Assembly: GCF_009914755.1 (NCBI RefSeq) | Contig: NC_060947.1 | Strand: one strand, 5' to 3' | Length of the DNA stretch: 64,000 nucleotides | From: the human T2T-CHM13v2.0 reference genome, Homo sapiens | In this document: piece by piece, positions 17,517 through 60,082 of the stretch | Layout of the letters: each line of letters begins with the position of its first letter | Numbering within the stretch: position 1 is the first letter of the stretch | Made by a program: the position numbers and the translations under genes | The notes under the pieces: generated by a model | The model's database searches: none | What the model was told of the DNA's origin: nothing | The model's input: the letters and a program-made list of their open reading frames with translations, nothing else

Positions 17517-20500
17517 TTTTTTTCAGTTTTTTTTTTAGTATACTTTAAGTTTTAGGGTACATGTGCACAACGTGCAGGTTTGTTACCTATGTATACATGT
17601 GCCATGTTGGTGTGCTGCACCCATTAACTCGTCATTTAACATTAGGTATATCTCCTAATGCTGTCCCTCCCCACTCCCCCCACCCCACAACAGGCCCAGG
17701 TGTGTGATGTTCCCCTTCCTGTGTCCATGTGTTCTAACTGTTCAATTCCCACCTATGAGTGAGAACATGCGGTGTTTGGTTTTTTGTCCTTGCAATAGTT
17801 TGCTGAGAAGGATGGTTTCCAGCTTCATCCATGTACCTACAAAGGACATGAACTCATCCTTTTTGTGGCTGCATAGTATTCCATGGTGTATATGTGCCAC
17901 ATTTTCTTAATCCAGTCTATCATTCTTGGACATTGGGCTTGGTGCCAAGTCTTTGCTATTGTGAATAGTGCTGCAATAAATATACATGTGCATGCATCTT
18001 TATAGCAGCATGATTTATAATCCTTTGGGTATATACCCAGTAATGGGATGGCTGGGCCAAATGGTATTTCTAGTTCTAGATCCCTGAGGAATCGCCACAC
18101 TGACTTCCACAATGGTTGAACTAGTTTACAGTCCCACCAACAGTGTAAAAGTGTTCCTATTTCTCCACATGCTCTCCAGCACCTGTTGTTTCCTGATTTT
18201 TTAATGATCGCCATTCTAACTGGTGTGAGATGGTATCTCATTGTGGTTTTGATTTGCATTTCTCTGATGGCCAGTGATGATGAGCATTTTTTCATGTGTC
18301 TTTTGGCTGCATAAATGTCTTCTTTTGAGAAGTGTCTGTTCATATCCTTCGCCCACTTTCTGATGGGGTTGTTTGTTTTTTTCTTGTAAATTTGTTGGAG
18401 TTCATTGTAGATTCTGGATATTAGCCCTTGGTCAGATGAGTAGATTGCAAAAATTTTCTCCCATTCTGTACGTTGCCTGTTCACTCTGATGGTAGTTTCT
18501 TTTGCTGTGCAGAAGCTCTTTAGTTGAATTAGATCCCATTTGTCAATTTTGTCTTTTGTTGCCATTGCTTTTTGTGTTTTAGTCATGAAGTCGTTGCCCA
18601 TGCCTATGTCCTGAATGGTATTGCCTAGGTTTTCTTCTAGGGATTTTATGGTTTTAGGACTAACATTTAAGTCTTTAATCCATCTTCAATTAATTTTTGT
18701 ATAACGTGTAAGGAAGGGATCCAGTTTCAGCTTTCTACATCTGGCTAGCCAGTTTTCCCAGCACCATTTATTAAATAGGGAATCCTTTCCCCATTTCTTG
18801 TTTTTGTCAAGTTTGTCAAAGATTGGATAGTTGTAGATATGCGGCATTATTTCTGAGGGTTCTATTCTGTTCCAGTGGTCTATATCTCTGTTTTGGTACC
18901 AGTACCATGCTGCTTTGGTTACTGTAGCCTTGTAGTATAGTTTGAAGTCAGGTAGCGTGATGCCTCCAGTTTTGTTCTTTTGGCTTAGGATTGACTTGGC
19001 AATGCAGGCTCTTTTTTGATTCCATATGAACTTTAAAGAAGTTTTTTCCAATTCTGTGAAGAAAGTCATTGGTAACTTGATGGGGATGGCATTGAATCTA
19101 TAAATTACCTTGGGCAGTGTGGCCATTTTTACGATCTTGATTCTTCCTACCCATGAGCATGGAATGTTCTTCCATTTGTTTGTATCCTCTTTTATTTCCT
19201 TGAGCAGTGGTTTGTAGTTCTCCTTGAAGAGGTCCTTCACATCCCTTGTAAGTTGGATTCCTAGGTATTTTATTCTCTTTGAAGCAATTGTGAGTGGGAG
19301 TTCACTCATGATTTGGCTCTCTGTTTGTCTGTTATTGGTGTATAAGAATGCTTGTGATTTTTGTACATTGATTTTGTATCCTGAGACTTTGCTGAAGTTG
19401 CCTATCAGCTTAAGGAGATTTTGGGCTGAGATGATGGGGTTTTCTAGATATACAATCATGTCATCTGCAAACAGGGACAATTTGACTTCCTCTTTTCCTA
19501 ATTGAATACCCTTTATTTCCTTCTCCTGCCTGATTGCCCTGGCCAGAACTTCCAACACTATGTTGAATAGGAGTGGTGAGAGAGGGCATCCCTGTCTTGT
19601 GCCAGTTTTCAAAGGGAATGCTTCCAGTTTTTTCCCATTCAGTATGATGTTGGTTGTGGATTTGTCATAGATAGCTCTTATTATTTTGAGATACTTCCCA
19701 TCAATACCTAATTTATTGAGAGTTTTTAGCATGAAGGGCTGTTGAATTTTGTCAAAGGACTTTTCTGCATCTATTGAGATAATCATATGGTTTTTGTTGT
19801 TGGTTCTGTTCATATGGTGGATTATATATGTTGATTTGCATATATTGAACCAGCCTTGCATCCTAGGGATGAAGCCCACTTGATCATGGTGAATAAGCTT
19901 TTTGATGTGCTGCTGGATTCGGTTTGCCAGTATTTTATTGAGGACTTTTACGTCTGTGTTCATCAGGGATATTGGTCTAAAATTCTCTTGTTTTTTTGTG
20001 TCTCTGCCAGGCTTTGGTATCAGGATGATGCTGGCCTCATAAAATGAGTTAGGGAGGATTCCCTCTTTTTCTATTGATTGGAATAGTTTCAGAAGGAATG
20101 GTACCAGCTCCTCCTTCTACCTCTGGTAGAATTCGGCTGTGAATCCATCTGGTCCTGGACTTTTTTTGGTTGGTAAGCTATTAATTATTGCCTCAATTTC
20201 AGAGCCTGTTATTGGTCTATTCAGAGATTCAACTTCTTCCTGGTTTAGTCTTGGGAGGGTGTATGTGTCGAGGAATTTATCCATTTCTTCTAGATTTTCT
20301 AGTTTGGTTGCATAGAGGTGTTTGTAGTATTCTCTGATGGTAGTTTGCATTTCTGTGGGATCAGTGGTGATATCCCCTTTATCATTTTTTTATTGCATCT
20401 ATTTGATTCTTCTCTGTTTTCTTCTTTATTAGTCTTGCTAGTGGCCTATCAATTTTGTTGATCGTTTCAAAAAACCAGCTCCTGGATTCGTTGATTTTTT

Positions 20501-23110
20501 GAAGGGCTTTTTGTGTCTCCATTTCCTTCAGTTCTGCTCTGATCTTAATTATTTCTTGCCTTCTGCTAGCTTTTGAATGTGTTTGCTCTTGCTTCTCTAG
20601 TTCTTTTAATTGTGATGTTAGGGTGTCAATTTTAGATCTTTCCTGCTTTCTCTTGTGGGCATTTAGTGCTATCAATTTCGCTCTACACACTGCTTTGAAT
20701 GTGTCCCAGAGATTGTGGTATGTTGTGTCTTTGTTCTTGTTGGTTTCAAAAAACATCTTTATTTCTGCCTTCGTTTCGTTATGTACCCAGTAGTCATTCA
20801 GGAGCAGGTTGTTCAGTTTCCATGTAGTTGAGCGATTTTGAGTGAGTTTCTTAATCCTGAGTTCTAGTTTGATTGCAGTGTGGTCTGAGAGACAGTTTGT
20901 TGTAATTTGTGTTCTTTTACATTTGCTGAGGAGTGCTTTACTTCCAACTATGTGGTCAGTTTTGGAATAGGTGTGGTGTGGTGCTGAAAAGAATGTATAT
21001 TCTGTTGATTTGGGGTGGAGAGTTCTGTAGATGTCTACTAGGTCCGCTTGGTGCAGAGCTGAGTTCAATTCCTGGATATCCTTGTTAACTTTCTGCCTCA
21101 TTGGTCTGTCTAATGTTGACAGTGGGGTGTTAAAGTCTCCCATTATTATTGTGTGGGAGTCTAAGTCTCTTTGTAGGTCTCTAAGGATTTGCCTTATGAA
21201 TCTGGGTGCTCCTGTATTGGGTGCATATATATTTAGGATAGTTAGTTCTTCTTGTTGAATTGATCCCTTTGCCATTATGTAATGGCCTTCTTTGTCTCTT
21301 TTGATCTTTTTTGGTTTAAAGTCTGCTTTATCAGAGACTAGGATTGCAACCCCTGCCTTTTTTGTTTTCCATTTGCTTGGTAGATCTTCCTCCATCCCTT
21401 TATTTTGAGCTTATGTGTATTTCTGCGTGTGAGATGGGTTTCCTGAATACAGCACACTGATGGGTCTTGATTTTTTATCCAATTTGCCAGTCTGTGTCTT
21501 TTAATTGGAGCAATTAAGCCATTTACATTTAAGGTTAATATTGTTATGTGTGAATTTGATCCTGTCATTATGATGTTAGCTGATTATTTTGCTCATTAGT
21601 TGATGCAGTTTCTTCCTAGCCTCGATGGTCTTTACAATTTGGCATGTTTTTGCAGTGGCTGGTCCCAGTCGTTCCTTTCCATGTTTAGTGCTTCCTTCAG
21701 GAGCTCTTTTAGGGCAGGCCTGGTGGTGACAAAATCTCTCAGCATTTGCTTGTGTGTAAAGGATTTTGTTTCTCCTTCACTTGTGAAGCTTAGTTTGGCT
21801 GGATATGAAATTCTGGGTTGAAAATTCTTTTCTTTAAGAATGTTGAATATTGGCCTGCACTCTCTTCTGGCTTGTAGAGTTTCTGCCAAGAGATCAGCTG
21901 TTAGTGTGATGGGCTTCCCTTTGTGGGTAACCCGACTTTTCTCTCTGGCTGCCCTTAACATTTTTTCCTTCATTTCAACTTTGGTGAATCTGTTCCATTG
22001 TTGGTGTGGAGCTGCATTCCTTTGGAGGAGGAGAGGTGCTCTGATTTTTAGAGGTTCTAGTTTTCCTGCTCTGTTTTTTTCCCCATCTTTGTGGTTTTAT
22101 CTGCCTTTGGTCTTTGATGATGGTGACGTACAGATGGGGTTTTGGTGTGTATGTCCTTTCTCTTTGTTAGTTTTCCTTCTAACAGTCAGGACCCTCAGCT
22201 GCAGGTCTGTTGGAGTTTGCTGGAAGTCCACTCCAGACCCTGTTTGCCTGGGTATTGGCAGTGGAGGCTGCAGAACAGTGGATATTGGTGAACAGCAAAT
22301 GTTGCTGCCTGATCGTTCCTCGGGAAGTTTTGTCTCAGAGGAGTACCTGGCCATGTGAGGTGTCAGTCTGCCCCTACTGGGGGGTGCCTACCAGTTAGGC
22401 TACTCGGGGGTCAGGGACCCACTTGGGAGGCAGTCTGTCCATTCTCAGATCTCCAGCTGCATGCTGGGAGAACCACTACTCTCTTCAATGCTGTCAGACA
22501 GGGACATTTAAGTATGCAGAGGATTCTGCTGCCTTTTGTTTGGCTATGCCATGCCCCTAGAGGTGGAGTCTACAGAGACAGGCAGGCCTCCTTGAGCTGT
22601 GGTGGGCTCCACCCAGTTTGAGCTTCCTGGACACTTTGTTTACCTCCTCAAGCCTTGGCAATGGCAGGCACCCCTCCCCCAGCCTCACTGCCACTTGCAG
22701 TTTGATCTCAGACTGCTGTGCTAGCAATGAGCAAGGCTCCAGGGGCGTAGGACCCTCTGAGCCTTGTGTGGGATATAATCTCCTGGTGTGCTGTTTGCTG
22801 AGACTGTTGGAAAAGTGCATTATTAGGGTGGGAGTGACCCGACTTTCCAGATGCCGTCTGTCATCCCTTTGACTAAGAAAAAGGGAATTCCCTGACCCCT
22901 TGCACTTCCCGGGGGAGGCGATGCCTCGCCCTGCTTTGGCTCATGCTCGATGTGCTGCCCCCACTGTCCTGCACCCGCTTTCCCACTCTCCCCAGTGAGA
23001 TGAACCCGGTACCTCAGTTGGAAATGCAGAAATCACCCGTTTTCTGCGTCGCTTATGCTGGGAGCTGTAGACTGGAGCTGTTCCTATTCGGCTATCTTGG
23101 CTCCACCCCC
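17517..23110 (-). mobile_element. Full-length-type L1PA (L1PA4-like) with ~560-bp ORF1 deletion; ORFs broken
   Basis: 5' UTR start at 23110, ORF1/ORF2 fragments (RT ORF 18686-19963), 17-bp TSD tagagtttacttttctt at ~17500 and 23111. Confidence 0.93.
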
Positions 23111-59900: not shown

Positions 59901-60082
59901 CATCACACTCCAGGGACTGTTGTGGGGTGGGGGGAGTGGGGAGGGATAGCTTTAGGAGATATACCTAATGCTAAATGACAAGTTAATGGGTGCAGCACAC
60001 CAGCATGGCACATGTGTACATGTATAACTAACCTGCACATTGTGCACATGTACCCTAAAACTTGAAGTATAATAATAATAAA
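53931..60082 (+). mobile_element. Full-length L1PA3-like element; ORF1 and ORF2 interrupted by stops and frameshifts
   Basis: 5' gccaagatggccgaatagg, ORF1 from 54967, ORF2 from 56047, 3' gctaaatgac...accagcatggcac; TSD gaaaaaatgc at 53921-53930 and 60379-60388. Confidence 0.95.

What the first reader, a model, noticed from the sequence alone, without database searches (positions are those of the whole stretch)
17517..60082. Three separate L1PA copies share non-consensus mutations, including a nonsense codon: local L1-L1 gene conversion
Seen: elements at 17.5-23.1 kb (-), 41.2-44.7 kb (+) and 53.9-60.1 kb (+) have different junctions and differ at subfamily-type sites (KKLTQ/KNLTQ, EIEAII/EIVAII, MDKFL/MDTFL). 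Yet they share changes from the recalled ORF2 consensus. All three: THKLK (THRLK), HNET (HNEM). 17k and 54k: YATKL (YANKL), DVK (DAK), KIVKMATLP (NIVKMAILP), KTQKA (KTPKA), LIQLK (LIKLK). 17k and 42k: DRPM, KRTQI, KLIAL. 42k and 54k: VSGLN and the same TAC>TAG stop (42937-42939, 56331-56333). An endonuclease-domain stop is unlikely to come from an active source, so patchy post-insertion conversion is inferred.
Basis: partly seen in the sequence, partly recalled or inferred. Interest (0 to 1): 0.75.

Follow-up and report, generated by a model that had tools for sequence, protein, structure and literature searches.

The report
Neighbouring L1 copies overwrite each other
Three dead LINE-1 jumping-gene copies near TAF9B on the human X chromosome share rare mutations in a patchwork, most likely because DNA repair copied short stretches from one neighbour into another after they inserted; neighbouring copies on chromosome 1 show the same excess, so this likely is a common process rather than an oddity of this spot.

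Summary
Observation confirmed; interpretation supported, but the locus is less special than scored. All named motifs and both TAG stops are present. The variants are rare (TAG: 14 of 5,704 copies), and the shared haplotypes are private or nearly so genome-wide: THKLK+TAG only in B and C; KRTQI+HNET+KLIAL only in A and B; YATKL+DVK only in A and [10 protein letters not shown] in 3 of 11,733. This rules out a sub-lineage. The AB/AC/BC pattern fits no tree. C is an independent insertion: younger subfamily stage, 10-bp target duplication, and a 3' transduction from an empty chr15 site. B and C share a ~600-bp low-divergence stretch (11 differences; 19-38 in 90 matched pairs). Retained subfamily differences bound most other tracts to tens or hundreds of bases. 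Best reading: repeated short non-allelic gene conversion between neighbours. Control: 12 chr1 L1PA pairs 3-48 kb apart share 1.9 private variants/kb, like this window (1.9/kb), against 0.06-0.12/kb for unlinked pairs. This is the L1 counterpart of known neighbour-Alu homogenisation; my searches found no L1 neighbour survey. Ape orthologues were not available.

The parts
17517..23110 (-). L1 copy A: near full length, older subfamily stage (L1PA5-like; name recalled, not tested), about 560 bp of ORF1 deleted near 21990; 17-bp target duplication at 17500-17516 and 23111-23127
41226..44740 (+). L1 copy B: internal fragment cut at both ends, no poly(A) or target duplication found; same stage as A; holds a 290-bp tandem duplication (43958-44247 / 44245-44534, 2 differences)
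53931..60084 (+). L1 copy C: full length, younger stage than A and B (L1PA4-like; name recalled, not tested), inserted into an older L1; 10-bp target duplication at 53921-53930 and 60379-60388
60080..60373 (+). 3' transduction carried by C; the only other genomic match is on chr15 (294 bp, 11 differences), where no L1 lies upstream in this assembly
55770..56365 (+). B-C homogenised stretch in C (ORF1 end to endonuclease domain), holding shared sites 56093, 56178, 56204 and the TAG stop 56331-56333
   Evidence: 11 differences in 596 bp against 19-38 in 90 stage-matched pairs
42372..42971 (+). the same stretch in B, with TAG at 42937-42939 and a C-type subfamily allele (C-coordinate 55968)
20445..21473 (-). 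part of A with variants shared with B (21473, 21104, 20909, 20673, 20445; B 42744-43770) and with both B and C (21411, 20773)
18526..20324 (-). part of A with patches shared with C (20307; 19955-19950; 19136 and 19119; 18573 and 18526; C 57303-59083), separated by retained subfamily differences

Best explanation
Three L1PA copies lying 13-40 kb apart share rare mutations in a patchwork that fits no single tree, most likely because germ-line break repair repeatedly used a neighbouring L1 as template and copied short stretches one way without exchanging flanks (non-allelic gene conversion). Shown: the sharing, its rarity, its non-tree pattern, C's independent insertion, intact target duplications of A and C, and retained subfamily differences between the patches. 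Inferred: the repair route (strand invasion and synthesis-dependent annealing); tract sizes from under 15 bp to about 600 bp; a lean towards C as donor; and a cumulative converted share of roughly 5-20% of sites per pair over about 15-20 million years (hand estimate, several times the point-mutation rate). No function is implied: these are dead copies and the TAG stop was simply carried along.
For: TAG is in 14 of 5,704 pattern-matched copies (C itself misses the pattern through a 4-bp deletion). Genome-wide haplotype counts: THKLK+TAG 2 (B, C); KRTQI+HNET+KLIAL 2 (A, B); YATKL+DVK 2 (A, C); KIVKMATLP double 3 of 11,733; KTQKA+LIQLK 5, two here; HNET 27, three here. Private shared non-CpG sites in 1,894 bp: A-B 5, A-C 3, B-C 3, against at most 3 in 2,533 unlinked pairs and 0.115/kb, at most 2, in 163 older stage-matched pairs. 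B-C low-divergence window: permutation p 0.0005, 0 of 81 peer pairs as low. At 28 firm subfamily sites B carries 2 C-type alleles, A 2 of 15 covered, C none of the older type. Sharing falls with distance on chr1: 0.60, 0.25 and 0.09 per kb at <100 kb, 100-300 kb and >300 kb (5, 9 and 415 pairs).
Against: No outgroup or population data, so no conversion event is dated or seen segregating. A-B and A-C show no low-divergence window (p 0.19-0.91), and identical runs round the shared sites are short (8-132 bp), so those tracts must be old or tiny. The C-type allele counts in A and B are within the spread of their peers (0-2 of 28 for most, one with 7), so donor direction is weak. A and B are the same stage and B lacks insertion hallmarks, so part of the A-B sharing could be descent. 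HNET is counted in all three pair scores. The 3' comparison rests on 10 copies.
Confidence: 0.85

Rival explanations
1. B was copied at the DNA level from A (or is a sibling from the same source), so A-B sharing is descent, and only the C-related sharing is conversion.
For: B has no poly(A), 3' end or target duplication, like the endonuclease-independent insertions described in PMC1920257 (passages). A and B are the same stage, and B is A's nearest neighbour among 71 panel copies plus C (4.36% non-CpG).
Against: The A-B sites all fall in about 1.0 of 2.7 kb of overlap, with none elsewhere (cluster p about 0.01, hand arithmetic). It cannot explain A-C or B-C sharing. B's ends could be later deletions.
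Confidence: 0.08
2. A minor L1 sub-lineage or one source element carried these variants and seeded all three copies.
For: A few unlinked copies carry single variants or one pair.
Against: Three multi-site haplotypes are confined to this window. The AB/AC/BC pattern is not tree-like. C differs from A and B at most subfamily sites and came from a chr15 source. An early stop in ORF2 is unlikely in a source that mobilises itself (established cis-preference, recalled).
Confidence: 0.02
3. Conversion was templated by reverse-transcribed RNA of one copy (C) rather than by neighbouring DNA.
For: A weak lean to C as donor. cDNA-templated conversion is described for yeast Ty and Tf2 (PMC6598467), and young Alus were the more frequent donors (PMC8230782).
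Against: A-B sharing excludes C, and distance decay on chr1 fits DNA-DNA contact better than a diffusing cDNA. A unique non-L1 inverted repeat in the window also has a homogenised-looking core.
Confidence: 0.03
4. Repeat mutation plus chance, or read mixing during assembly.
For: Single sites such as THKLK (3 of 74) and VSGLN (1 of 72) recur; the window was chosen because it shows sharing.
Against: Poisson p 1e-5 for A-B and 0.003 each for A-C and B-C at a generous 0.15/kb. Unselected chr1 neighbours show the same excess. Copies 5-6% apart are easy to separate with long accurate reads (general knowledge).
Confidence: 0.02

Closest known systems
Homogenisation of neighbouring Alu elements by non-allelic gene conversion (Aleshin and Zhi 2010; not held, known only through passages of PMC8230782 and PMC6598467)
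   Same: Excess of shared non-diagnostic mutations between nearby copies, falling with distance; those reviews also mention hotspots on sex chromosomes.
   Different: L1PA copies of 3.5-6 kb rather than 300-bp Alus. The range seen here reaches at least about 50 kb, against about 10 kb quoted for Alu. Three-way mosaic in both orientations.
Gene conversion among LTR elements on the human Y (Trombetta et al. 2016, as summarised in PMC6598467)
   Same: Mosaic of clustered derived alleles moved between copies of a transposable element.
   Different: That work used population polymorphism; here one X assembly and old, probably fixed variants.
L1 gene conversion in single loci and cell culture (Burton et al. 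1991, seen only as a reference title in PMC5640379; tracts as small as 13 bp in break repair, passage in PMC1920257)
   Same: L1 acts as template for another L1; very short tracts are possible.
   Different: Here the donors are identifiable neighbours, events are repeated, and a distance control is given.
L1-L1 recombination rearrangements (TEMR, PMC9675761, passages)
   Same: Homologous recombination between nearby L1 copies.
   Different: Those are crossovers that delete, duplicate or invert. Here A and C keep matching target duplications, so there is no net flank exchange.

Membership tests
Non-allelic gene conversion between transposable-element copies | Copies arose independently, not by duplication | tested here: met
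   Met for A and C (own target duplications, different stage, chr15 transduction). B versus A is not settled.
Non-allelic gene conversion between transposable-element copies | Shared derived variants beyond repeat mutation and beyond sub-lineage | tested here: met
Non-allelic gene conversion between transposable-element copies | Mosaic pattern incompatible with one tree | tested here: met
   AB, AC, BC and ABC sites interleave
Non-allelic gene conversion between transposable-element copies | Tract of reduced divergence | tested here: inconclusive
   Met for B-C (p 0.0005), not for A-B or A-C
Non-allelic gene conversion between transposable-element copies | Non-reciprocal transfer without flank exchange | tested here: met
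   Alleles are shared rather than swapped (one possible swap at 58653); target duplications of A and C intact
Non-allelic gene conversion between transposable-element copies | Dependence on distance | tested here: met
   chr1 controls, small samples
Non-allelic gene conversion between transposable-element copies | Ancestral state in outgroup species; shared polymorphism in populations | not testable with these tools
   No ape genomes or further human assemblies are held
L1PA4 / L1PA5 subfamilies | Match to the named subfamily consensus | not tested
   Only relative stage was obtained, by ordering 72 copies on 131 variable sites; the names are recalled
Endonuclease-independent L1 insertion (copy B) | 3' truncation, no poly(A), no target duplication, and a verified pre-insertion site | tested here: inconclusive
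   First three seen; the empty site cannot be checked, so later deletions remain possible

The most novel reading that the evidence does not exclude
Gene conversion between neighbouring L1PA copies is pervasive in the human genome, reaches tens of kilobases, runs at several times the point-mutation rate per site, and has not been surveyed for L1; this X locus, with cross-subfamily exchange and a homogenised unique inverted repeat, is a hotter-than-average case. L1 copies then are not independent mutation recorders.
Probability: 0.4. Interest if true: 0.65.

Novelty: new member of a known kind. Interest (0 to 1): 0.5.

Why it matters
Ages of L1 copies, subfamily trees and germ-line mutation rates read from L1 remnants assume that each copy mutates alone. 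If neighbours exchange 5-20% of their sites, clustered copies look younger or falsely related. Thousands of L1PA pairs would also give a ready fossil record of ectopic repair between sequences about 95% alike, by distance, orientation and chromosome, which makes rate and tract length directly measurable. The same pairing underlies L1-mediated deletions and inversions. The locus itself has no shown function.

Tried and rejected
Site 55064 (A+C) was dropped: it lies at the edge of A's ORF1 deletion and is an alignment artefact. The first panel was biased to young copies resembling C, so position-ordered chr1 copies were added. Rows dropped from the main count: L001 (= C), L031-L044 (picked for TAG; includes B), L014 (identical twin of L013), CpG-like columns, and unlinked pairs overlapping 1,200 bp or less. 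L038/L039/L041 share 31-32 sites but look like acrocentric duplicates. The chr15 locus could not serve as C's parent sequence because it is empty. The older pair 23140-29760 / 47577-53742 (81-90%) shows no long identical runs (longest 60 bp) and was not pursued. An inversion between A and C was rejected by their intact target duplications. A full-length panel of 100 copies was not obtained, so the 5' UTR (C 53931-54760) is untested and the 3' third rests on 10 copies. GENECONV was not run; a minimum-window permutation was used instead. Aleshin and Zhi 2010 is not held. No supplements were read.
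Full report
The observation. Self-alignment shows three young L1 copies: A (17517-23110, minus), B (41226-44740, plus) and C (53931-60084, plus), 93.6-95.4% identical. One slip: MDKFL/MDTFL is a rare allele (3 of 70), not a subfamily site.

Are the variants rare? A 24-base pattern with TAG matches 14 places, against 5,704 with any base at that position. 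The 14 are B and 13 unlinked copies; C misses through a 4-bp deletion. The 13 carry none of the nine panel-absent shared alleles checked (C-coordinates 56093 aside: 56142, 56178, 56507, 56702, 56838, 56938, 57166, 57303, 57660). Multi-site patterns: THKLK+TAG 2 matches (B, C); KRTQI+HNET+KLIAL 2 (A, B); YATKL+DVK 2 (A, C); the KIVKMATLP pair 3 of 11,733 (A, C, one on chr18); KTQKA+LIQLK 5, two here; HNET 27, three here. These are exact-match counts, so copies with a nearby mismatch are missed; searches have no denominators of their own. The sub-lineage reading is not supported.

Is it more than chance? The panel held 75 other copies: 28 best hits to a 171-bp piece of C, the first 30 chr1 copies by position, and 17 chr1 neighbours. 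Counting non-CpG alleles absent from all other panel members over 1,894 bp gives A-B 5, A-C 3 and B-C 3 (HNET counts in each). 2,533 unlinked pairs average 0.064/kb and never exceed 3; 163 older stage-matched pairs average 0.115/kb and never exceed 2. In the 3' third, A and C share four more alleles absent from 10 of 10 comparators.

Independent origin. A has a 17-bp target duplication. C sits inside an older L1 between 10-bp duplications and carries 294 bp of 3' flank whose only other match is on chr15, with 11 differences. No L1 lies upstream at that chr15 site, so the source allele was likely lost; C therefore did not come from A or B. The 3.7% difference suggests an age near 15-20 million years (my calibration, recalled); PMC4083085 (passages) places L1PA6-PA3 between 26.8 and 7.6 million years. 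Ordering 72 copies on 131 variable sites puts A and B at an older stage than C. B has no poly(A), 3' end or target duplication; its origin is open.

Tract anatomy. B and C differ at 11 of 596 positions in C 55770-56365, against 19-38 in 90 stage-matched pairs; the best 600-bp window has permutation p 0.0005 and 0 of 81 peer pairs as low. A-B and A-C show no such window (p 0.19-0.91). Of 28 firm subfamily sites, B has the C-type allele at 2, A at 2 of 15 covered, and C has none of the older type; most peers show 0-2, so this is only suggestive of direction. In the 3' third A has young-type alleles at 57766, 57784, 58246, 58767 and 58780, with retained differences between them, and C has old-type alleles at 58653, 58654 and 59589 (10 comparators). 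So subfamily identity survives, and the patches are short: under 15 bp if VSGLN is real, otherwise up to a few hundred bases.

Mechanism. Alleles are shared, not swapped, and flanks are intact, which points to conversion without crossover. It occurs in direct (B-C, 13 kb) and inverted (A-B about 22 kb, A-C about 35 kb) orientation. Repair of a germ-line break using the neighbouring L1 as template is the likely route; this step is inferred from established recombination biology. Shared-to-private ratios (5/45, 3/39, 3/33) and converted subfamily sites (2/28, 2/15, 0/28) give a hand estimate of 5-20% of sites per pair, or about 3e-9 to 1e-8 per site per year.

Is the locus special? Among 30 position-ordered chr1 copies, sharing is 0.60/kb under 100 kb (5 pairs), 0.25 at 100-300 kb (9) and 0.09 beyond (415). 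Twelve chr1 pairs 3-48 kb apart, picked on distance from the first 100 listed places and not exhaustive, share 40 sites in 20.8 kb (1.92/kb); the window has 11 in 5.7 kb (1.94/kb). The spread is wide: 19, 7, 6, 4, 2, 1, 1 and five zeros; without the 3-kb pair the rate is 1.1/kb. The three highest pairs have different 3' flanks, though only a few flank bases were seen for L104, so they are not plain duplications; being same-stage pairs, they could still be siblings. The six cross-stage chr1 pairs share 4 sites in 11.2 kb, against 6 in 3.8 kb for A-C and B-C (hand arithmetic, p about 0.02, but this window was selected for sharing). A unique 1,292-bp inverted repeat here has all 10 mismatches outside an 885-bp core (p about 1e-4). 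The locus may be somewhat hot, but it is in the normal range.

What is known. PMC6598467 (parts 1-2 of 4 read) and PMC8230782 (passages) describe conversion between neighbouring Alus within about 10 kb, hotspots on sex chromosomes, and LTR mosaics on Y. L1 conversion appears as a 1991 reference title (PMC5640379, passages), as short tracts in cultured cells (PMC1920257, passages) and in passing in PMC13192797 (passages). PMC9675761 (passages) covers L1-L1 crossovers. Eight searches aimed at L1 conversion found no survey of neighbouring L1 copies; the library lacks most subscription papers, and Aleshin and Zhi 2010 was not held.

Verdict. Real, well beyond chance, and most likely local non-allelic gene conversion (0.85). 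It is a new member of a known kind. Interest 0.5, carried mainly by the sign that the process is general among L1PA neighbours and easy to test genome-wide.

Noticed in passing
window 37417-38708 and 61289-62580: Unique 1,292-bp inverted repeat, 99.2% identical, only these two copies in the genome. All 10 mismatches lie outside an 885-bp perfect core (p about 1e-4), suggesting conversion between the arms. The right arm ends in A-rich tails (62581-62632) like a retroposed piece; no target duplication seen. It brackets B and C and could support an inversion.
   Followed up: partly
window 60080-60373; L085 (G000:C15:33609696-33609984): C's 3' transduction maps to an empty chr15 site, marking a lost L1 source element.
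   Followed up: yes
window 43958-44534: 290-bp tandem duplication inside B with only 2 differences; recent or homogenised.
   Followed up: no
window 41180-41226: B's 5' junction appears to cut off the end of an older LTR (family recalled as MST/THE1-like, not tested), hinting at a deletion.
   Followed up: no
window 23140-29760 and 47577-53742: Two long older L1 copies, 81-90% alike, in the same orientation with different Alu interruptions; no long identical runs.
   Followed up: partly
L101/L102 (G000:C1:60653522-60659553): Head-to-head L1PA pair 3 kb apart with different 3' flanks sharing 19 private variants in 1.9 kb, the strongest case seen; fold-back duplication is not excluded.
   Followed up: partly
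L067-L071, L077-L079 (G000:C1:46.67-47.05 Mb): A cluster of L1PA copies with a similar three-way mosaic of shared rare variants; duplication in this region was not excluded.
   Followed up: partly
L013 and L014 (G000:C23:100.68 and 100.90 Mb): Two L1 copies 100% identical over 2.8 kb in opposite orientation, likely arms of an X palindrome.
   Followed up: no
G000:C11:4366580 and 4417778: Two of the 27 HNET carriers lie 51 kb apart, another possible neighbour exchange or duplication.
   Followed up: no
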